DNA of 64,000 nt, taken from contig DATKWU010000009.1 in the NCBI GenBank assembly GCA_035529375.1, positions 157,848 to 221,847 on the forward strand, given 5' to 3'. The position numbers were made by a program, and so were the translations under genes. Each line of letters opens with the position of its first letter. Within the stretch, counting starts at the first letter, position 1. The notes beneath the pieces are model-generated. The model was given only the letters and a program-made list of their open reading frames with translations, was not told where the DNA came from and ran no database searches. This document shows positions 14,615 through 20,687 of the stretch, in pieces. This DNA comes from Patescibacteria group bacterium. GTDB taxonomy: Bacteria; Patescibacteriota; Microgenomatia; PFEM01; JAHIFH01.

Positions 14615-15697
14615 CTACTCTTTCTTTTTTTCGCCAATTTCTCTAGACAAATCTAACTTACCAGCTTTAACTTTTTCCCAAATTTCTTTCTCAATTTTTT
14701 TCGTTATTTGAGGGTGTTCTTCTAGATAAGCCTTAGCTGCCTCTCTACCTTGACCGAGCATGATTTTGTCAAACTTAAAAAAAGCACCCGACTTTTCAAT
14801 AATCTCTAGTTCAACCGCAACATCAACCAAATTACCTGACTGAGAGATACCGCCAACATTCATAATATCAAATTCGGCCACTCGAAAAGGCGGCGCTACT
14901 TTGTTCTTAACCACCCTAGCTCGATGACGCGAACCAATTACAATCTCACCATCCTTAATGGCCCCAATTTTCCGTAAATCAATTCTGACAGAGGAATAAA
15001 ACTTTAAAGCTAAACCGCCAGGGGTGGTTTCCGGATTACCAAACATCACTCCAATTTTATGACGCAGTTGGTTAGTAAAGATAACAATTGTTTTTGACTT
15101 GGAAATGGCCGCAGTTAACTTTCTTAAAGCTTGAGACATTAATCTGGCCTGAACACCAATCATTGCCGCGCCCATCTCGCCTTCAATCTCGGCCCGGGGC
15201 GTCAAAGCAGCCACTGAATCAATAGCAACAACATCAATTGCTCCAGAGCGAACCAATGTCTCAACAATTTCCAAAGCTTGCTCGCCAGTATCAGGCTGAG
15301 AGATTAATAATTCATTTAAGTTAACCCCAATGGATTCGGCTCTAGCTGGATCCATGGCGTGTTCCGCATCAACAAAAGCGGCTGAACCACCTCTTTTTTG
15401 GGCTTCAGCAATAACATGCAAAGCCAAAGTGGTCTTACCTGAAGCTTCAGGTCCGTAAATCTCGACTACCCGACCTCTTGGCAAACCACCGACACCAAGA
15501 GCGACATCTAAAGCAATTGAGCCAGTGGGAATAACATTAACTTTTTTCACTTCACCCTTGCTACCCATTCTCATAATCGCCCCTTTACCATATTGTTTTT
15601 CGATCTGTTCCATGGCCATTCTAACAGCTAGAGCTTTTTTACTAGAGGTGTCTTTTTTAACAACAGGGTTTTTAGGAGCTTTTTTCTTTCTTGCCAT
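14615..15697 (-). CDS. recA: Recombinase RecA
   Basis: [40 protein letters not shown]...AFVDAEHA is unmistakable RecA. Confidence 0.95.
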
Positions 15698-15741
15698 CTT
15701 TTTAGATTTTTACACAAAATGTGATAAAATTCAAGATGTAA

Positions 15742-15815
15742 CGGGGTGTGGCGCAGTTGGCTAGCGCGCACGCATGGGGTGCGTGAGGTCGCCGGTTCGA
15801 GCCCGGCCACCCCGA
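15742..15815 (+). tRNA. tRNA-Pro (anticodon GGG)
   Basis: Hand-folded cloverleaf: acceptor CGGGGUG/CACCCCG with the C1:G72 pair typical of bacterial tRNA-Pro, D-stem GCGC, anticodon stem CACGC/GCGUG, loop AUGGGGU (anticodon GGG), T-arm GCCGG-UUCGAGC-CCGGC, discriminator A. No CCA is encoded. Confidence 0.8.
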
Positions 15816-15820
15816 CAAAT

Positions 15821-16405
15821 ATGGAAGAAGAAAAATCAGAGGTCACTCCTTTTTGGTTAGGAACCACTTGTTCTGATCGTTCTTTTGAAGAATATAGAGA
15901 TCTACTTGGTTTTTCTGAAAACGAATTTAAAGGAAAATCAATTCTCGATATTGGTGCTGGAACAACCCAAGAATTTACCAAGCAAGCTGCAAAGAAAGGT
16001 ATCAAAGTCACTACCATCAATCCCGAATTAAATAATAAATTTTACCGAATGGCCCCAGATCAAAGAAGTTGGTGGCAATTAAGAAAACCAAAAAGACCTC
16101 TATCTGTCGCAGCTTTAGGACAAAATTTACCCTTTAAAGACGAATCTTTTGACGATATCACTTCTCTAATTGCTGTCCCACATTATTTACCAAATGATAG
16201 TCAACTAATCCGTCAGTCTTTCCGAGAAATGTTAAGAGTTTTGAAACCAGGCGAAAAAGCTTATTTATGCTTTAAAAAAAGAGATTTAATTGATCAAGAA
16301 CTATCGAAACTAGAGACGGAAGGTATTTCTGTTCTATCTGAAGACATGCCAGGGTATTCCCAGAGACAAAGAACTATTTTAGAAAAGCCTCTCCAAAAAA
16401 TCTAA
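15821..16405 (+). CDS. Class I SAM-dependent methyltransferase
   Basis: Motif I ILDIGAGT and a Rossmann-fold pattern. The ORF track start (15746) lies inside the tRNA, so the true start is the ATG at 15821. Confidence 0.6.
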   Translation: MEEEKSEVTPFWLGTTCSDRSFEEYRDLLGFSENEFKGKSILDIGAGTTQEFTKQAAKKGIKVTTINPELNNKFYRMAPDQRSWWQLRKPKRPLSVAALGQNLPFKDESFDDITSLIAVPHYLPNDSQLIRQSFREMLRVLKPGEKAYLCFKKRDLIDQELSKLETEGISVLSEDMPGYSQRQRTILEKPLQKI

Positions 16406-17532
16406 TGCTGTTTCCTATCTCTAAAAGCAATCTTACTGGCTAAAATCGTTGTAATGGGAACGGCCAAAATAAGACCGACACTTCCTACTAAAGTCCTAAC
16501 AATTTCTTCAGCGATCATCTGGTAATTAATAATCTCTGAAAACGGTCGGGGATTATCAATGAAAAGAAGCATTAAAGGCAAAGCGGCGCCAGTGTAAACT
16601 AAAACTAAAGTGTTAATCATTGAGGCAATATGGTCTTGACCAACATCCATGGCTCTTAAAAACAATTCTTTTGTTTTCATTTTCGGATTAGCCTTTTTTA
16701 ATTGCTGAATAATCGCCGCTTGAGAAATAGTAATGTCATCCAAAATTCCTAAAGTACCAATAATAATGCCAGCTAATAAAATCCCTTTTATATTAATTTG
16801 TCCTCGTCTGGCTAAATGAAGAAAGGCTGCTTCTTCTGAAGCATAACCAGTCAATTTGGTTAATTCAATAAAAAACTTTGATAAAAGGCCAACAATTAAC
16901 AAAGCTATTAATGTTCCAGCCATGGCCACTAAGGTTTTTCGGTTTAAACCATGAGAAAGAAGAAAAGTTGCCGGAATAATAATTAATGAACCAACAATGG
17001 CAATAATAATCGGATCTTCGCCTTTATAAATCTGAGGTAAAATAAACAAGAAAATAACGGCAAAAGAGATAACTAGGCCTAATAAAGACATACCACCCCG
17101 CCATTGACCCACTATCAAAGCCAAAACAACAAAGATCAAAAAAAGCCAAACTAATGGTTTTCGCCGAATAAAATCAGTGATAATAAAAATGTTCTTGCCT
17201 TCAAAATCCTTAGAATAACTAATCATCACCTCATCACCCACTTGATATTTCGGCTGACCAACTATTGGAATATCGCCTACCTCGATCTTAATTTTTTCTC
17301 CAGCTAAAGAACCCTTGGATATCCTAACTTCTAATTCTTGATAAAGTAGTTTCTCACCATCTCTAATCATGGATTTTTCATCAAGAAGACTAATTACCTT
17401 TCCTTCAAGGAGTTCTTCTTGAAAAAGACTCGTTTCCATTTCTTGAGTCTCCTGCGACCAAATATAATCAATGGGTAAGCAAAAAAAGATTAAAATAAAA
17501 AAAAAGAAAGCTAATAGTTTTTTTATAACCAT
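16402..17532 (-). CDS. YibE/F family membrane protein
   Basis: Signal/TM segment, a roughly 120-aa extracytoplasmic domain, then six or more TM helices. This architecture and the 376 aa length match YibE/F-like proteins. Confidence 0.45.
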   Translation of the reverse strand: MVIKKLLAFFFFILIFFCLPIDYIWSQETQEMETSLFQEELLEGKVISLLDEKSMIRDGEKLLYQELEVRISKGSLAGEKIKIEVGDIPIVGQPKYQVGDEVMISYSKDFEGKNIFIITDFIRRKPLVWLFLIFVVLALIVGQWRGGMSLLGLVISFAVIFLFILPQIYKGEDPIIIAIVGSLIIIPATFLLSHGLNRKTLVAMAGTLIALLIVGLLSKFFIELTKLTGYASEEAAFLHLARRGQINIKGILLAGIIIGTLGILDDITISQAAIIQQLKKANPKMKTKELFLRAMDVGQDHIASMINTLVLVYTGAALPLMLLFIDNPRPFSEIINYQMIAEEIVRTLVGSVGLILAVPITTILASKIAFRDRKQH

Positions 17533-18707
17533 CCCAAGAACATCGCTAAACCTAAACCTAAAATAATGAGACCGGCTACTAAATGAAGATATTTGATATT
17601 CTTATCTTTCCAACCAGCTACATTTTCAACCGTGGTAAAGCCAATATAACAAGCGCCAGTAATTAATAACATTGGTAAAACAAAAATCAGATTATAAAGT
17701 AACAACCAAGGAATTACTTGAACTAAATCAAAGGTACATAAAATACCACCGCAAATCACATAAGGACCAATCGTACAAGGAAGCAAAAAAAGAGTAACTA
17801 AAGCCCCAACCACAAAAGCACCTCTAGGGCTAGTAACCTTAAACATTAGACTTTGGACTTTGGGACGCAGAAACATGGGCATCTCAGTTAAAAAACCTCC
17901 GGGTTTATAACGAATAAAATCTCTAAGATTTAAAATTCCTAAAATAATGGCCGCTAATCCTAAAATTCTATAAAGCCATAATTTAATACTCGTTAGAGCT
18001 TGGATTAATTGGAAAAACCTAATAATCACCAAACCATAGAAGAAATACATTACAAAAACGGCCGTGGTGAAAGCTAAGCCAGCTAAGAGGATATTGTAAC
18101 GCTTTTTCGGAGCAAAGGCTAAAATAGCAAAAAGCATCATCACTAAGACTGCCAGAGCGCAAGGATTGATGGCATCAACCGCGGCCAAAGAAATAATCTT
18201 GGGTAAGGTCAATTCTGTTTGAATTGTCTCGCCCGAAGACACAGAGATACTGCCAGCTGACGCTGACAAAATTTCTGGCTTGCCTGGCAAAGTTGAAATA
18301 TCCAAGTCTCCAAAGCTGGTCGAACTACCATCAGTCAAAGGGCAGGCATTACCTTCTAATTGCTCAAGCTTGGTTTCAATATTCTCTAAAATTGGCCTAT
18401 CGCCAATAAGGAAATTATCCTTACCAAAAATAATTAAAGGAATACTTAACCCCGAACCATAAATTTCATTATATTTAGTTAATAAGGGTGCATTATTTCT
18501 TTGTTGATAAATTTCATATTCAATGATAACTAAATTGGGATACTTTTTAGGTAATTCTTTAAGGAGAACTGGATCAACTTGAGCGCAATGAGGACAACCA
18601 ACTCCAGTAAAGTAAATCAGGCAAGTTTTCTCTTCGGCCTGGAGAGACGATGAAAACAAGACTGTCAGTAATAAAATGGAAATAAAAAAAATGGCTAATT
18701 TCTTCAT
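17523..18707 (-). CDS. Thioredoxin-like domain fused to a CcdA/DsbD-type transmembrane disulfide transporter
   Basis: Signal peptide followed by a thioredoxin fold with a CPHC active site (LIYFTGVGCPHCAQVDPVL). The C-terminal polytopic domain carries the two conserved CcdA cysteines (DAINPCAL and LLPCTIGPY). Confidence 0.65.
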   Translation of the reverse strand: MKKLAIFFISILLLTVLFSSSLQAEEKTCLIYFTGVGCPHCAQVDPVLLKELPKKYPNLVIIEYEIYQQRNNAPLLTKYNEIYGSGLSIPLIIFGKDNFLIGDRPILENIETKLEQLEGNACPLTDGSSTSFGDLDISTLPGKPEILSASAGSISVSSGETIQTELTLPKIISLAAVDAINPCALAVLVMMLFAILAFAPKKRYNILLAGLAFTTAVFVMYFFYGLVIIRFFQLIQALTSIKLWLYRILGLAAIILGILNLRDFIRYKPGGFLTEMPMFLRPKVQSLMFKVTSPRGAFVVGALVTLFLLPCTIGPYVICGGILCTFDLVQVIPWLLLYNLIFVLPMLLITGACYIGFTTVENVAGWKDKNIKYLHLVAGLIILGLGLAMFLGWL

Positions 18708-18745
18708 TCAGCTATTCTTTAGGATAAGTAATTTTAGCCTTTTTT

Positions 18746-19045
18746 TCAACCACGAATCATTTTCACTCGACCTCCCTCAATCCTAATCGCTTTACCTTCA
18801 ACCAAACCTTCACTTACTTTTTTTCTGGCGGAAGTGAGGATTCGTTGAAAAGTGGATTGAGAAACTTTCATCTTTCTAGCCGCTTTAATTTGGTCAACAC
18901 CCTGATAATCAGCCGAACGAATGGCTTCTAATTCATCGACACTTAATTTAACCTCCCTTAAATAGCGCAAAGGTACTCCCCGAGGTTTGTAGTAAGTCAC
19001 CCCTGGTCGAAATGATATCCACCGCCATCTTTTTGGTCTAGGCAC
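18746..19045 (-). CDS. DUF134 family predicted DNA-binding protein (sigma-70 region-4-like HTH)
   Basis: 99 aa. The pattern [25 protein letters not shown]...[37 protein letters not shown] matches the DUF134/UPF0251 family. Confidence 0.55.
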
Positions 19046-19052
19046 GGTTAAA

Positions 19053-19301
19053 TTACTTGCCTTGAATTTCTTTTTCTTCTTTTGCGACGTCTTCTAATTC
19101 TTCTTGAAGCGCTTTTTTGTATTCTTTTAAAGCCTCAACTTCCTCTTCTTTGGATTGAGGCCAGCGCCAACCAAAATAACGGCCCATGCCCCGGCCGGGC
19201 GCAAAACGTCGGCGCCAACCCAAACCTAGTCCACAAGGACCAAAACCACGACCTGTTGAAGGTCCTTGACCTCTTGGTCCTGTTTGATCAAATCCTGGCA
19301 T
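19053..19301 (-). CDS. DUF5320-like small protein with a Gly/Pro-rich N-terminus and a coiled-coil C-terminus
   Basis: [29 protein letters not shown]... resembles the small proteins that commonly pair with DUF134 genes. It has a strong SD, GGAGGTGA. Confidence 0.45.
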
Positions 19302-19340
19302 AAATATTCACCTCCTCTCTCTTATTATGAATATATACCC

Positions 19341-19368
19341 ATTATAACATGAACAGGAGAGTTGTCAA
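19341..19368 (-). promoter_or_regulatory. Near-consensus sigma-70 promoter for the DUF5320-DUF134-Trx::CcdA-YibE/F operon
   Basis: The minus strand reads TTGACA - 16 nt - (TG)TTATAAT about 35 nt upstream of the GGAGGTGA SD and the ATG at 19301. Confidence 0.5.
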
Positions 19369-19391
19369 GGATTATTTTTTTTCTAAGAGAA

Positions 19392-19835
19392 TTATCTTTT
19401 CGGAGATTGTTTCTTCGCTCGGGCTGATTGGGCAAGGCCGGCTTTGCGGCGCTCTTTCATTCGGGGGTCACGAGTTAAAAGACCAGCTTTTTTTAAAGGT
19501 AGATGATAAAGTTCAGAGTTTTCTTTGTCCAAAGCTCTGGCTAAGCCATGGACAACCGCTCCCAATTGACCATTTTTACCTGATCCTCTAACCTTAACCG
19601 TCGCGTAATATTTCCCTTCAGTTTTGGTGACCTGAAACGGCTTCATGTAAATAAGTTCATTGACTTCACCCGGAAACCATTCTTCAATTGGCCGATTATT
19701 GACCATCAAATCGCCTTTACCTTTGAAGAGTCTTACCCGGGCCACTGCCTCTTTCCTTCGGCCAAGAGCATAAGTATAGGCTTTTTTCCGACCTCGCTTG
19801 GTTTTTCTAACCTTAACTGTTTTTTTAGTCGTCAT
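19392..19835 (-). CDS. rpsI: 30S ribosomal protein S9
   Basis: The C-terminal ...ARKQSPKR and the overall match to S9, with an N-terminal basic extension. Confidence 0.9.
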   Translation of the reverse strand: MTTKKTVKVRKTKRGRKKAYTYALGRRKEAVARVRLFKGKGDLMVNNRPIEEWFPGEVNELIYMKPFQVTKTEGKYYATVKVRGSGKNGQLGAVVHGLARALDKENSELYHLPLKKAGLLTRDPRMKERRKAGLAQSARAKKQSPKR

Positions 19836-20254
19836 TATTTTTTAAATTTATCCTGATAAAGATGTTGATCGTCGCTAAACACTTTCAATCTCCTTAATCT
19901 TCGATCTCTTAATTTATTTTTAGGTAGCATGCCATTGACAGCGTAGTGAATTATTTTTCTCGGATCACGCTTCATCAACTCCTCAAAAGTTTTTTCCTTA
20001 AAACCACCAGGATAACCAGAATGATGTTGGTAGAGTTTTTGTTTTCTTTTACGGCCACTGACTTCAACCTCGGCCGCATTAATAACAACAACATAATCAC
20101 CGCAATCTAAATTGGGCGAGTAATAAACTTTGCTCTTACCAATCAATAATTCCGCAATCTGACTTGCTACCCGACCAAGTCTCTTATCCTTAACATCAAT
20201 CAGGTACCAACCTCTTTTAATTTCACTTGCTTTGGTTGTCTTTGTTTTTTTCAT
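19835..20254 (-). CDS. rplM: 50S ribosomal protein L13
   Basis: KRGWYLIDVKDKRLGRVASQIAELLIGK is the L13 signature. Confidence 0.9.
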   Translation of the reverse strand: MKKTKTTKASEIKRGWYLIDVKDKRLGRVASQIAELLIGKSKVYYSPNLDCGDYVVVINAAEVEVSGRKRKQKLYQHHSGYPGGFKEKTFEELMKRDPRKIIHYAVNGMLPKNKLRDRRLRRLKVFSDDQHLYQDKFKK

Positions 20255-20687
20255 TTTTTCCTCGCGCTAAGTCTTTCTTTTTCTTGTTCGACTTTTTTGT
20301 TTTTTCTTTTCCTGACTTTTCTTCAGATTTGGGTTTAACCACTAATTCTAACTTCACCATGGTGGCATCATCACCACGACGTTGACCTAGGCGAATTATT
20401 CTAGTAAAACCACTTGATCTATCTTTAAATTGGGGAGTAATATTATCTACCAACTTATTAACAACCTTTCTATCATTAAAGAAAGCCTCTATCGTTCGTC
20501 GAGTGTGGAGAGTATTCTTTTTGCCCTTGGTAACTAAGCGATCAAAAAGTCGACGGACTGCCTTAGCCTTACTCTCGGTTGTTTTGATTTCCCCATGCAA
20601 AATCAAAGCGCTGAGTAAATTTTTAAACAGCGCTCTACGGTGACTTCTGCTTCGAGATAGTTTCTTTTTAGCCACTCTATGCTTCAT
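20223..20687 (-). CDS. rplQ: 50S ribosomal protein L17
   Basis: MKHRVAKKKLSRSRSHRRALFKNL...HGEIKTT, followed by a Lys-rich C-terminal extension. Confidence 0.85.
   Translation of the reverse strand: MKHRVAKKKLSRSRSHRRALFKNLLSALILHGEIKTTESKAKAVRRLFDRLVTKGKKNTLHTRRTIEAFFNDRKVVNKLVDNITPQFKDRSSGFTRIIRLGQRRGDDATMVKLELVVKPKSEEKSGKEKTKKSNKKKKDLARGKNEKNKDNQSK

What the first reader, a model, noticed from the sequence alone, without database searches (positions are those of the whole stretch)
16402..19368. DUF5320 - DUF134 - secreted thioredoxin::CcdA fusion - YibE/F operon behind a near-consensus promoter
Immediately downstream of rpsI, a TTGACA-N16-TGTTATAAT promoter precedes four co-oriented, overlapping or abutting genes. 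They are a Gly/Pro-rich DUF5320-like protein, a DUF134 putative HTH regulator, and a signal-peptide thioredoxin domain (CPHC) fused to a CcdA/DsbD-type membrane electron and disulfide transporter. CcdA normally reduces periplasmic thioredoxin-like partners, so this reads as a self-contained reductant shuttle. The fourth gene is a YibE/F-family membrane protein. DUF134/DUF5320 pairs are widespread but uncharacterised, so this locus links them to an extracytoplasmic thiol-redox module.
Basis: partly seen in the sequence, partly recalled or inferred. Interest (0 to 1): 0.55.

Follow-up and report, generated by a model that had tools for sequence, protein, structure and literature searches.

The report
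Self-regulated surface thiol-redox operon
A four-gene operon in a tiny candidate-phyla-radiation (Patescibacteria) bacterium pairs an uncharacterised DNA-binding protein (DUF134) and its small partner (DUF5320) with a surface thioredoxin fused to a membrane cysteine relay, and comparing it with relatives reveals the DNA palindrome this regulator family probably binds in both bacteria and archaea.

Summary
On the minus strand, directly after rpsI, sits the only perfect TTGACA-N16-TATAAT promoter in the 64-kb window (it also has the TG extension). It precedes four abutting genes: DUF5320 (PF17253), DUF134 (PF02001), an exported CPHC thioredoxin fused to a membrane domain, and YibE/F (PF07907).

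The "CcdA" label is only partly right. The window protein matches no DsbD or CcdA profile. Its homologues score as GAP/SfLAP (PF11139) and borderline DsbD_2, both in the LysE/DsbD superfamily. The cysteines of CPHC and of the Pro-Cys motifs in TM1 and TM4 are invariant.

New findings:
- A 16-bp palindrome (consensus ATGAATATATATTCAT) overlaps the -10 element and the likely transcription start.
- Of 120 metagenome loci holding the exact 20-mer, 100 have it just upstream of a DUF5320 or DUF134 gene. This holds behind both bacterial and archaeal promoters.
- DUF134 lies within 6 kb of the thioredoxin fusion in 33 of 80 species.
- Gene fusions elsewhere link the parts: DUF134::DUF5320, DUF134::YibE/F, TRX::YibE/F, and split TRX plus membrane genes.

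Best reading: an autorepressed envelope module that exports reducing power. A thiol-based metal-handling role is the main rival. No experiments exist.

The parts
19363..19368 (-). -35 hexamer TTGACA
   Evidence: Promoter scan gives 12/12. It is the unique exact match in the window, with 0.01 expected.
19341..19349 (-). Extended -10 element, TG-T-TATAAT
   Evidence: The spacer to the -35 hexamer is 16 nt.
19327..19342 (.). 16-bp palindromic candidate operator. It reads ATGGGTATATATTCAT on the minus strand; the family consensus is ATGAATATATATTCAT. It overlaps the last 2 nt of the -10 element and the expected transcription start.
   Evidence: It is the only site with <=3 mismatches in the 64 kb. 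In 80 related loci there are 28 sites with <=2 mismatches against 1-3 in shuffles, almost all 2-110 bp upstream of DUF5320 or DUF134. In the reverse test, 100 of 120 exact 20-mers in metagenomes lie upstream of these genes.
19309..19316 (-). Shine-Dalgarno sequence (GGAGGTG), 7 nt before the DUF5320 ATG
   Evidence: Read directly from the sequence.
19053..19301 (-). DUF5320 protein, 82 aa. It has a Gly/Pro/Arg-rich N-terminus with the conserved motif MP..DGTGP.G.GP.TGRG.GpC, then a charged helical C-terminus. Proposed role: sensor or co-regulator acting in trans.
   Evidence: PF17253 2e-15. Conservation across 80 sequences. Adjacent to or near 44 of 50 short DUF134 genes but only 10 of 39 long ones. 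Fused to DUF134 in 5 of 60 long forms.
18746..19045 (-). DUF134 (UPF0251) protein, 99 aa, with no Cys. It has a sigma-70-region-4-like helix-turn-helix. Proposed role: repressor that binds the palindrome.
   Evidence: PF02001 6.7e-25. Weak sigma70-ECF region-4 similarity. Sigma70_r4_2 is hit in 30 of 60 family members. Co-occurs with the palindrome.
17523..18707 (-). Exported thioredoxin-fold domain fused to a 6-TM membrane domain of the LysE/DsbD superfamily (GAP/SfLAP-DsbD_2 type), 394 aa
   Evidence: Homologues found. Pfam scan by member. AlphaFold model with pLDDT 79. C38, C41, C183 and C311 are invariant.
18348..18635 (-). Thioredoxin-fold domain (aa 25-120). CPHC codons are at 18585-18596. 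The cis-Pro candidate is P90. The signal peptide is aa 1-24 (18636-18707).
   Evidence: Foldseek finds thioredoxins with probability 1.0 and TM-score (target) 0.6-0.7. The best sequence matches in the PDB are ScsC/DsbA-like proteins, E 8e-5 with the profile.
17526..18215 (-). Membrane domain (aa 165-394). TM1 is broken at N-P-C183 (codon 18159-18161) and TM4 at L-P-C311-TIGP (codon 17775-17777).
   Evidence: AlphaFold helices. SfLAP and DsbD_2 hits in homologues. hhalign places C311 on the Cys of DsbD's SPCTTAP motif.
16402..17532 (-). YibE/F-family polytopic membrane protein, 376 aa. It has an N-terminal anchor and an exported domain, then a TM bundle with conserved SHG.N.KT, SEEA, LDD and G.DHI.SM.NTL motifs. 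It has essentially no Cys.
   Evidence: PF07907 2.5e-79. Conservation. DUF134::YibE/F fusions P0164, P0170, P0176, P0185, P0209 and P0214. One TRX::YibE/F fusion at L075 2444-3910.

Best explanation
This is an autoregulated envelope operon.

Regulation (inferred from comparative genomics). A consensus sigma-70 promoter is overlapped, at its -10 element and transcription start, by a 16-bp palindrome. That palindrome is the family-wide cis element of DUF5320-DUF134 operons. DUF134, a sigma-70-region-4-like helix-turn-helix protein, most likely binds it as a dimer and represses its own operon.

Sensor (inferred). DUF5320 is Gly/Arg-rich, has one conserved Cys and a helical tail. It most likely acts as a separate sensor or co-regulator subunit. 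In other genomes its place is taken by a Cys-rich zinc-ribbon, a NifX-like domain or a DUF5320 domain fused to DUF134. The signal is therefore probably read through cysteine or metal chemistry: thiol oxidation, a metal, or Fe-S status.

Cargo (inferred from sequence). The 394-aa protein is a one-polypeptide transmembrane thiol-disulfide relay. Cytoplasmic thioredoxin would reduce the Cys183/Cys311 pair, which sits at proline kinks of TM1 and TM4 in a 6-TM DsbD/GAP-superfamily domain. That pair would in turn reduce the exported thioredoxin-fold domain (C38-P-H-C41), which reduces targets on the cell surface.

YibE/F (role unknown). It is Cys-free and carries conserved acidic and His residues in its membrane helices. 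It works alongside the relay, probably as a permease or as a signal input to DUF134, but its chemistry is not known.
For: Promoter:
- 12/12 match, unique in 64 kb, 0.01 expected by chance.

Operator:
- It is the only site with <=3 mismatches in the window and it lies on the promoter.
- In 80 loci chosen only for carrying the TRX fusion, there are 28 sites with <=2 mismatches against 1-3 in shuffles. Nearly all are 2-110 bp upstream of DUF5320 or DUF134.
- In the reverse test, 100 of 120 metagenome loci holding the exact 20-mer have a DUF5320 (65) or DUF134 (35) start within -90 to +250 bp, with a median of 27 bp. Nine of the rest are at contig ends.
- The palindrome keeps a fixed geometry on core promoters. 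A TATA-like box directly precedes it in 61 of 99 loci. TTGAC lies exactly 8 nt before it in 17 loci and 9 nt before it in one more.

DUF134 as the DNA binder:
- PF02001 hit, plus sigma-70 region-4 similarity.

DUF5320 as a partner:
- It accompanies short DUF134 in 44 of 50 cases and long DUF134 in 10 of 39.
- Long forms carry Cys-rich zinc-ribbon, NifX-like or DUF5320 domains.

Relay:
- C38, C41, C183 and C311 are invariant in 120 of 120 homologues.
- There is a signal peptide and a thioredoxin fold.
- Homologues hit SfLAP (43 of 51) and DsbD_2 (15 of 51) over their full length. Both families belong to the LysE superfamily of 3+3 TMS proteins (PMC4608589).
- C311 aligns with the Cys of E. coli DsbD's SPCTTAP motif.
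- In 9 of 80 loci the TRX and membrane parts are separate adjacent genes.
- WCGPC thioredoxin or TrxB genes directly flank the gene in some loci.
- The closest solved relatives of the TRX domain are ScsC proteins. ScsC is kept reduced by the DsbD-type protein ScsB (PMC3322552).

Co-function of all four genes:
- DUF134 lies within 6 kb of the fusion in 33 of 80 species.
- DUF134::YibE/F fusions exist, and one TRX::YibE/F fusion.
- YibE/F and the TRX fusion also occur in the opposite order, in L090 and L167.
Against: - There is no experimental or transcript data of any kind.
- The window protein itself has no significant DsbD, CcdA or SfLAP hit.
- Foldseek with the membrane-domain model (pLDDT 75) found nothing, including no CcdA.
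- The 3+3 internal repeat was not detectable.
- CPHC is, from my own knowledge, the active-site motif of the oxidase DsbA rather than of typical reductases.
- No obvious clients such as Msr, peroxiredoxin or cytochrome c maturation genes are encoded nearby.
- The recurrent neighbours are metal or Fe-S related: ZIP, NifX-like proteins, MinD-ferredoxin ATPases and ArsP-like permease halves.
- YibE/F has no cysteines, so it cannot be a thiol client.
- 47 of 80 TRX-fusion loci have no DUF134 within 6 kb.
- Binding of the palindrome by DUF134, rather than by DUF5320 or another factor, is inferred from co-occurrence only.
Confidence: 0.55

Rival explanations
1. Metal-handling module. The CPHC domain and the two membrane cysteines bind and pass on a thiophilic metal or metalloid. 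This would follow MerP/MerT-like logic, or act as an exporter or importer like other LysE-superfamily metal carriers. YibE/F (or ZIP in other genomes) would be the companion permease. DUF134/DUF5320 would be a metal- or Fe-S-responsive repressor in the manner of Zur, Fur or IscR.
For: - The LysE superfamily contains many metal-ion transporters as well as DsbD (PMC4608589).
- ZIP transporters sit directly next to the fusion in many archaeal loci, and occur in 19 of 80 loci overall.
- Other cargo of these operons includes NifX-like proteins, MinD-ferredoxin ATPases, ArsP-like halves and SufC-like ATPases.
- DUF134 sensor modules are zinc ribbons, HypA-like domains or NifX-like domains.
- The best PDB sequence matches are copper-resistance ScsC proteins.
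- YibE/F has conserved Asp, Glu and His residues in its membrane helices and no Cys.
- NifU and NifS genes lie next to one DUF134::YibE/F locus.
Against: - The exported domain has a complete thioredoxin fold with CxxC and an invariant cis-Pro candidate. That is typical of redox-active thioredoxins.
- Cysteines preceded by Pro in TM1 and TM4 are the DsbD/CcdA signature. They are not known in the metal-transporting LysE families (my own knowledge).
- Thioredoxin and TrxB genes neighbour the fusion in some loci.
- ScsC itself acts through thiol redox chemistry (PMC3322552).
Confidence: 0.22
2. Oxidative pathway. The CPHC domain is a DsbA-like disulfide-forming oxidase for surface proteins, and the membrane domain re-oxidises it.
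For: - CPHC is the E. coli DsbA motif (my own knowledge).
- The PDB sequence hits include DsbA and DsbA-like proteins.
- A second conserved Cys pair, C29/C122 (~90%), looks like a structural disulfide and so implies an oxidising exterior.
Against: - The domain is a minimal thioredoxin fold of about 95 aa, without the helical insertion that DsbA has (secondary structure; Foldseek hits are plain thioredoxins).
- The membrane partner resembles DsbD_2/GAP, not DsbB or VKOR.
- Candidate-phyla-radiation (CPR) bacteria and DPANN archaea generally lack the quinones and respiratory chains needed to drain electrons (my own knowledge).
Confidence: 0.08
3. Adjacency without shared function. The promoter and palindrome control only DUF5320-DUF134. 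The fusion and YibE/F are unrelated housekeeping membrane proteins that happen to lie downstream in a compact genome.
For: - 47 of 80 TRX-fusion loci lack DUF134 nearby, and only 7 of 80 have YibE/F.
- There is a 38-nt gap and a weak promoter-like match (9/12) before the fusion gene.
- CPR genomes are densely packed and largely co-oriented, as this window is.
Against: - The association is far above chance for single-copy genes: 33 of 80 loci, on the same strand, across bacteria and archaea.
- It recurs in operons found through the palindrome alone (16 of 120).
- In L051 the palindrome sits directly upstream of a TRX-membrane-DUF134 operon.
- Fusions join DUF134 to YibE/F and TRX to YibE/F.
- No terminator-like site lies in the gaps between the genes.
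Confidence: 0.1

Closest known systems
DsbD / ScsB membrane electron transporters (TC 5.A.1), with their thioredoxin-fold partners such as ScsC
   Same: - A membrane domain of the LysE/DsbD superfamily carries one cysteine in each of two Pro-kinked helices.
- It is covalently joined to an extracytoplasmic thioredoxin-fold CxxC domain.
- The nearest solved relatives of the TRX domain are ScsC proteins, which ScsB keeps reduced (PMC3322552).
   Different: - There are six rather than eight helices.
- The TRX domain is N-terminal, whereas DsbD gamma is C-terminal.
- There is no Ig-like alpha domain.
- The Pfam profile match is to GAP/SfLAP and borderline DsbD_2, not to DsbD PF02683.
- The second motif is PCxxxP, and TM1 lacks the second Pro.
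- The hosts are CPR bacteria and DPANN archaea, which have no periplasm and no cytochrome c pathway.
CcdA plus surface thioredoxins of monoderm bacteria (B. subtilis CcdA-ResA/StoA; S. pneumoniae CcdA-Etrx-MsrAB2, PMC3914529)
   Same: - A six-helix carrier with two cysteines feeds an exported thioredoxin-fold protein on a cell that has no outer membrane.
- In 9 of 80 relatives the two parts are separate genes, as in these systems.
   Different: - Here the two parts are fused.
- No Msr, cytochrome or sporulation client is encoded nearby.
- A CcdA profile match is absent, and Foldseek did not recover CcdA structures.
GAP/Sap family (PF11139, TC 2.A.116; mycobacterial glycolipid-addressing proteins)
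   Same: It is the best Pfam match for the membrane domain of homologues: full-length alignment, with several members above the 35-bit cut-off.
   Different: - To my knowledge the mycobacterial members have no thioredoxin domain.
- They are not known to use membrane cysteines.
- Their proposed substrates are lipids (PMC4608589).
Autoregulated metal or redox repressors whose operator overlaps their own promoter (Zur, Fur, IscR, ArsR types)
   Same: - A palindromic operator lies on the -10 element and transcription start of the regulator's own operon.
- Cys- or metal-binding sensor modules are present.
- The cargo includes a ZIP importer and Fe-S-related proteins.
   Different: - The DNA-binding fold is different: sigma-70-region-4-like DUF134.
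- The sensor can be a separate small protein, DUF5320.
- The same operator is used behind bacterial sigma-70 promoters and archaeal TATA/BRE promoters.
- No ligand is known.
Membrane-tethered one-component regulators (ToxR/CadC type)
   Same: In one lineage DUF134 is fused in frame to the N-terminal anchor of YibE/F (P0176 and others). This gives a cytoplasmic helix-turn-helix tied to a polytopic membrane domain.
   Different: - In the window the two are separate genes.
- The DNA-binding domain is not OmpR-like.

Membership tests
DUF134 / UPF0251 (PF02001) | Profile match above the curated cut-off | tested here: met
   88 bits against a cut-off of 27, E 6.7e-25, covering 6-96 of 98 profile positions.
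DUF134 / UPF0251 (PF02001) | Helix-turn-helix of the sigma-70 region 4 type, and DNA binding | tested here: inconclusive
   The window protein has sub-threshold sigma70-ECF and HTH_31 hits. Sigma70_r4_2 is hit in 30 of 60 family members. Binding is inferred only from co-occurrence with the palindrome. No solved structure exists by sequence search.
DUF5320 (PF17253) | Profile match above the curated cut-off | tested here: met
   58 bits against a cut-off of 27, E 2e-15. The conserved N-terminal motif with one Cys is present.
YibE/F (PF07907) | Profile match above the curated cut-off | tested here: met
   267 bits against a cut-off of 27, over the full-length profile 1-240 of 241.
Thioredoxin fold | Thioredoxin fold with CxxC at the start of helix 1 and a cis-Pro loop | tested here: met
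   Foldseek finds thioredoxins with probability 1.0 and TM-score (target) 0.6-0.7. C38-P-H-C41 and P90 are invariant. The Pfam Thioredoxin score is below the cut-off, 18-20 bits against 23.5.
DsbA family | Helical domain inserted into the thioredoxin fold | tested here: not met
   The modelled domain is a plain beta-alpha-beta-alpha-beta-beta-alpha fold of about 95 aa with no insertion. The structural hits are plain thioredoxins.
CcdA / DsbD (PF02683, TC 5.A.1) | Profile match to the DsbD/CcdA transmembrane model | tested here: not met
   No PF02683 hit for the window protein even at E<=10, nor among the families matched by most of its 51 homologues.
CcdA / DsbD (PF02683, TC 5.A.1) | Two essential cysteines, one in TM1 and one in TM4, each next to a helix-breaking Pro | tested here: met
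   N-P-C183 and L-P-C311-TIGP are invariant in 120 of 120 homologues. Both sit at helix breaks in the models. C311 aligns with the Cys of DsbD's SPCTTAP motif, although weakly: E 0.0014, probability 18%.
CcdA / DsbD (PF02683, TC 5.A.1) | Six-helix 3+3 inverted repeat; structural similarity to solved CcdA | tested here: inconclusive
   The model has six long helices, with charged loops that fit an N-out, C-out topology (plus the sequence). hhalign of the two halves is not significant. Foldseek against the PDB gives no significant hit.
CcdA / DsbD (PF02683, TC 5.A.1) | Accepts electrons from cytoplasmic thioredoxin and reduces an exported partner | not testable with these tools
   Only contextual hints exist: thioredoxin and TrxB genes flank the gene in a few loci.
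DsbD_2 (PF13386) | Profile match above the curated cut-off | tested here: inconclusive
   There is no hit for the window protein. 15 of 51 homologues hit at E<=1 with full-length alignments. The best is 24.9 bits, exactly the cut-off.
GAP / SfLAP (PF11139) | Profile match above the curated cut-off | tested here: inconclusive
   There is no hit for the window protein at E<=1. 43 of 51 homologues hit. Several are above the 35-bit cut-off: P0107 at 41.4, P0119 at 41.0 and P0066 at 38.5. One source names P0082 a 'GAP family protein'.

The most novel reading that the evidence does not exclude
DUF134, DUF5320 and the ATGAATATATATTCAT palindrome form a self-contained regulator-operator cassette. It works behind both bacterial sigma-70 promoters and archaeal TATA/BRE promoters. 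It reads a cysteine-, metal- or Fe-S-based signal through interchangeable sensor modules: DUF5320 in trans, or zinc-ribbon or NifX-like domains in cis. It would control a so far unrecognised trace-metal, Fe-S and surface-thiol homeostasis regulon that is widespread in candidate-phyla-radiation (CPR) bacteria, DPANN archaea and other anaerobes. Within that regulon, the N-terminal-thioredoxin::6-TM GAP/DsbD-like fusion would be a new class of transmembrane electron transporter and the main extracytoplasmic reductase of these organisms.
Probability: 0.35. Interest if true: 0.75.

Novelty: new variant of a known kind. Interest (0 to 1): 0.6.

Why it matters
DUF134/UPF0251 is a large family: 3,561 clusters at 50% identity. 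The searchable literature holds no characterised member, no solved structure and no known DNA target.

This locus and its relatives supply three things that make the family directly testable:
- A precise operator sequence that is conserved across two domains of life.
- A likely partner, DUF5320.
- A defined set of cargo genes.

It also describes an abundant but unstudied thioredoxin::membrane-cysteine-relay fusion, present in at least 587 species representatives. Most of the hosts are candidate-phyla-radiation (CPR) bacteria and DPANN archaea, which have no cytochrome c pathway. The fusion is therefore a candidate for how these minimal, surface-attached cells keep exposed thiols reduced or handle thiophilic metals. 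Finally, it gives the first functional associations for YibE/F proteins, which matter for Staphylococcus aureus fitness in blood (PMC13227979).

Tried and rejected
1. Direct Pfam and NCBIfam search of the fusion for CcdA or DsbD found no hit, even at E<=10.
2. Foldseek with the full-length model found only thioredoxins. Foldseek with a separate membrane-domain model found nothing significant, including no CcdA. This is inconclusive rather than negative, because the query is all-helical and, as I recall, the solved CcdA structures are NMR models.
3. hhalign of the N-half against the C-half of the membrane domain, to show the 3+3 repeat, was not significant; the alignment has low diversity, Neff 1.7.
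4. The PDB sequence search gave CcdA 5vkv only at E = 9.3.
5. Literature searches for DUF134, UPF0251, COG1342, DUF5320 and the operator sequence found nothing relevant. One YibE search was wasted on word-start matches. The whole-word search gave only a transposon-screen mention.
6. An Rfam scan of 15000-20500 found no riboswitch or leader RNA, only tRNA-Pro.
7. A PADLOC scan shows none of the four proteins is a known defence component.
8. A palindrome scan at <=3 mismatches is too loose in AT-rich DNA (49 observed against 29 in shuffles), so <=2 mismatches and the exact 20-mer were used instead.
9. I considered that the DUF134::YibE/F fusions might be gene-calling run-throughs. I rejected this: the sequences join in frame at the YibE/F membrane anchor, and the fusion recurs in six clusters and three independent contigs.

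Full report
**1. What is there**

The region lies on the minus strand at the end of the ribosomal-protein/rpoA/rplQ/rplM/rpsI block of a Patescibacteria genome assembled from a metagenome. An identical copy of the fusion protein is annotated 'hypothetical protein VMY36_02100, Patescibacteria group bacterium'. The same gene order occurs on a 234-kb ENA contig.

After rpsI (19392-19835) come four genes:
- an 82-aa DUF5320 protein (19053-19301)
- a 99-aa DUF134 protein (18746-19045)
- a 394-aa fusion protein (17523-18707)
- a 376-aa YibE/F protein (16402-17532)

The spacings are 7 nt, 38 nt and a 10-nt overlap. The last gene overlaps a convergent methyltransferase gene by 4 nt. No terminator-like site lies in the gaps between the genes.

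In the 90-nt gap after rpsI sits TTGACA-N16-TG-T-TATAAT, a 12/12 match. It is the only exact consensus promoter in the 64-kb window, where shuffles give 0.01. A strong GGAGGTG ribosome-binding site follows. An Rfam scan finds no leader RNA.

**2. Domain assignments**

Pfam confirms DUF5320 (2e-15), DUF134 (6.7e-25) and YibE_F (2.5e-79), all far above their cut-offs. DUF134 shows weak sigma-70 region-4 similarity. This is reproduced in 30 of 60 diverse family members.

The fusion is less clear-cut. Its N-terminus has a signal peptide and a CPHC motif. Its Pfam Thioredoxin score is below the cut-off (18-20 bits against 23.5). The thioredoxin fold is nevertheless confirmed by the AlphaFold model (pLDDT 79) and by Foldseek (probability 1.0, TM-score 0.6-0.7 relative to thioredoxins). 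The closest solved sequences are ScsC/DsbA-like copper-resistance proteins (E 8e-5 with the family profile).

The C-terminal 230 residues give no DsbD or CcdA hit at all. In homologues they match:
- SfLAP/GAP PF11139 in 43 of 51, over the full length, with several above the cut-off
- DsbD_2 PF13386 in 15 of 51, with the best exactly at the cut-off

GAP and DsbD are both six-helix 3+3 families of the LysE superfamily (PMC4608589).

Across 120 homologues, four cysteines are invariant: C38 and C41 (CPHC), C183 (N-P-C) and C311 (L-P-C-T-I-G-P). A further pair, C29/C122, is about 90% conserved. In the models C183 and C311 sit at proline breaks of the first and fourth membrane helices.

hhalign against E. 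coli DsbD is weak (E 0.0014, probability 18%). It does align C311 with the Cys of DsbD's SPCTTAP motif, which I take from memory to be the essential TM4 cysteine. Three further tests were uninformative: Foldseek with the membrane domain, an internal-repeat test, and the PDB sequence search for CcdA.

The protein is therefore a DsbD/GAP-superfamily member with the CcdA-type cysteine pattern. It is not a demonstrable CcdA family member.

**3. The fusion family and its neighbours**

A degenerate-pattern scan of one genome per GTDB species found at least 587 relatives. By record title they are mostly candidate-phyla-radiation (CPR) bacteria and DPANN archaea, with a few Proteobacteria and others.

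In the 80 best loci (+/-6 kb) I called ORFs and searched them with profiles built from the window proteins. The counts are:

| Feature | Loci (of 80) |
|---|---|
| DUF134 present | 33 |
| DUF5320 present | 25 |
| YibE/F present | 7 |
| TRX and membrane parts as separate adjacent genes | 9 |

These genes are almost always on the same strand as the fusion and often directly upstream. The nine split cases support a partnership between the two halves.

Clustering the remaining ORFs and annotating representatives showed a recurrent modular neighbourhood:
- small NifX-like (Nitro_FeMo-Co) proteins
- MinD/ParA ATPases with an inserted 2x[4Fe-4S] ferredoxin domain (28 loci)
- ZIP metal transporters (19 loci, often directly next to the fusion in archaea)
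- ArsP-like permease halves
- a SufC-like ATPase
- thioredoxin reductase (7 loci)
- WCGPC thioredoxins

The window's operon is a minimal version of this neighbourhood.

**4. The operator**

I aligned the regions upstream of the first gene of each DUF5320/DUF134 unit. This exposed a 16-bp perfect palindrome, ATGAATATATATTCAT; the 20-mer is TTATGAATATATATTCATAA.

The window copy is ATGGGTATATATTCAT at 19327-19342. It overlaps the last two bases of the -10 element and covers the expected transcription start. It is the only site with <=3 mismatches in the whole window.

In the 80 loci, which were chosen without reference to the motif, there are 28 sites with <=2 mismatches. Shuffles give 1-3. Nearly all sites lie 2-110 bp upstream of DUF5320 or DUF134. 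Archaeal loci often carry two or three tandem copies spaced 23-24 bp apart.

As an independent reverse test I scanned the metagenome collection for the exact 20-mer.
- 100 have a DUF5320 (65) or DUF134 (35) start within -90 to +250 bp, reading away from the palindrome; the median is 27 bp
- 105 have such a gene somewhere in the locus
- 9 of the remainder are at contig ends

The palindrome keeps a fixed position on core promoters. A TATA-like box directly precedes it in 61 of 99 oriented loci (archaeal type). TTGAC lies exactly 8 nt before it in 17 loci and 9 nt before it in one more (bacterial type), which makes the palindrome centre the -10 element. In the window's lineage the palindrome is shifted one helical turn downstream of a separate consensus -10.

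The held literature does not contain this sequence.

The most economical reading is that the helix-turn-helix protein encoded just downstream, DUF134, binds the palindrome and represses its own operon. This is inference from co-occurrence, not a demonstration.

**5. DUF5320 and the sensor question**

- Short DUF134 proteins (<=105 aa, helix-turn-helix only, like the window's, which has no Cys) have a DUF5320 gene within 3 kb in 44 of 50 cases.
- Long DUF134 proteins (>=140 aa) have one in only 10 of 39 cases.

The C-terminal extensions of the long forms are mostly Cys-rich zinc-ribbon-like segments preceded by a Gly/Arg-rich stretch resembling the DUF5320 N-terminus (29 of 39). Some are NifX-like domains.

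In the exhaustive 1.84-billion-protein library the family has 3,561 clusters at E<=1e-3. The DUF134 domain is nearly always at or close to the N-terminus. Among 60 long representatives the added domains are Nitro_FeMo-Co (11), zinc ribbons or HypA-like domains (about 20) and DUF5320 itself (5).

DUF5320 carries the conserved motif MP..DGTGP.G.GP.TGRG.GpC with a single conserved cysteine, followed by a charged helix.

DUF5320 therefore behaves as a detachable version of the sensor module. The input signal is probably read through cysteine or metal chemistry. Which signal it is remains unknown.

**6. YibE/F**

The family is uncharacterised. It has no solved structure by sequence search. The only literature found is a transposon screen in which two S. 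aureus YibE/F genes are needed for fitness in blood.

The CPR homologues have essentially no cysteines (106 of 120 have none beyond the anchor). They do have conserved Ser-Glu-Glu, Asp-Asp and Asp-His motifs in membrane helices. YibE/F is therefore not a thiol client and looks more like a permease.

Two kinds of fusion tie it to the other genes:
- Six of the 120 best homologues are in-frame DUF134::YibE/F proteins, joined at the YibE/F membrane anchor. On three independent contigs they sit behind a promoter-palindrome-DUF5320 unit.
- One Patescibacteria homologue (L075 2444-3910) carries an N-terminal thioredoxin-like CxxC domain of the same subfamily and lies next to a TRX-fusion gene.

YibE/F and the fusion also occur in the opposite order behind DUF5320-DUF134, in L090 and L167.

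Fusions elsewhere thus connect all four window genes into one chain: DUF5320 to DUF134, DUF134 to YibE/F, YibE/F to the thioredoxin domain, and the thioredoxin domain to its membrane partner.

**7. Mechanism and rivals**

I commit to an autorepressed operon that exports reducing power. Electrons would pass from cytoplasmic thioredoxin to C183/C311, then to C38/C41, then to surface targets. This is the logic of DsbD/ScsB (PMC3322552) and of CcdA-Etrx in pneumococci (PMC3914529).

My estimated confidence by step:

| Step | Confidence |
|---|---|
| Operon and promoter | high |
| Operator-DUF134 link | about 0.8 |
| Thiol relay | about 0.6 |
| Role of YibE/F | low |

The main rival (0.22) is that the cysteines relay a thiophilic metal rather than electrons, and that the regulator senses metal or Fe-S status. 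This would explain the ZIP, NifX-like and MinD-ferredoxin cargo, the zinc-ribbon and NifX-like sensors, and the ScsC similarity. The two readings are not exclusive.

An oxidative DsbA-like role (0.08) is suggested only by the CPHC motif. It is disfavoured by the lack of a DsbA insertion and of any quinone-linked partner.

Mere adjacency (0.10) is disfavoured by the conservation and the fusions.

**8. Novelty and score**

Fusions of a thioredoxin domain to a DsbD-type membrane domain, and autoregulated palindromic operators, are both known kinds of system. What is new here:
- the particular architecture: an N-terminal thioredoxin on a six-helix GAP/DsbD_2-like domain, abundant in CPR and DPANN organisms
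- the first predicted DNA target and partner for the large, unstudied DUF134 family, apparently used in both bacteria and archaea
- the first functional associations for DUF5320 and YibE/F

I rate it a new variant of a known kind, with interest 0.6. It would not overturn anything, but it turns several 'domains of unknown function' into directly testable hypotheses.

Noticed in passing
window 15742-15816 (+): tRNA-Pro(GGG) lies between recA and the convergent methyltransferase gene. The long ORF 15746-16405 starts inside the tRNA, so the true methyltransferase start is downstream; the ENA gene call gives 194 aa.
   Followed up: partly
L005 3939-5183, L008 3939-5183 and neighbours: Close CPR relatives insert extra genes between DUF134 and the TRX fusion: NifX-like small proteins, a ~414-aa protein that clusters with NifX-like domains, and two MinD/ParA-ferredoxin ATPases. 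This is an uncharacterised Fe-S-looking gene set in organisms that have no nitrogenase.
   Followed up: partly
L028 4363/4387, L053 1220/1244, L063 1645/1669, L067 242/265, L074 817/840, L078 3001/3037/3078: Archaeal-type loci carry two or three tandem copies of the palindrome, mostly 23-24 bp apart. This suggests cooperative binding on the same face of the DNA helix.
   Followed up: partly
L083-L202 (metagenome loci) compared with window 19327-19368: In other bacterial loci TTGAC lies 8 nt (17 loci) or 9 nt (1 locus) before the 20-mer, so the palindrome centre serves as the -10 element. In the window's lineage the palindrome sits about 10 nt further downstream, behind a separate consensus TATAAT.
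   Followed up: yes
L204 8171-9643 (-) and 9696-10880 (-): A NifU_N gene is interrupted by a LAGLIDADG-type (intein-like) segment. It lies next to a NifS-like aminotransferase and an ArsR-type regulator, convergent on a DUF134::YibE/F fusion gene. A ParE/Phd toxin-antitoxin pair is also present in this locus.
   Followed up: no
window 17523-18707 (-), residues C29 and C122: A second cysteine pair, about 90% conserved, flanks the exported thioredoxin domain. It may be a structural disulfide, which would be odd next to a reductase domain.
   Followed up: no
L003-L008, L007: The organism names in some record titles look unreliable. Contigs with ribosomal operons 63-97% identical to this Patescibacteria window are titled 'uncultured Gammaproteobacteria'. 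A 'Bathyarchaeia' contig (L007) has a bacterial TTGACA/TATAAT promoter.
   Followed up: no
L051 5882-7921 (Devosiaceae contig of 657 kb), L036, L040, L066: GC-rich contigs labelled as proteobacterial carry the same system with a different gene order: palindrome variant ATGAACATATGTTCAA, then TRX, the membrane protein, a DUF134::NifX-like fusion and two MinD-ferredoxin ATPases. The system is therefore not confined to CPR and DPANN organisms.
   Followed up: partly
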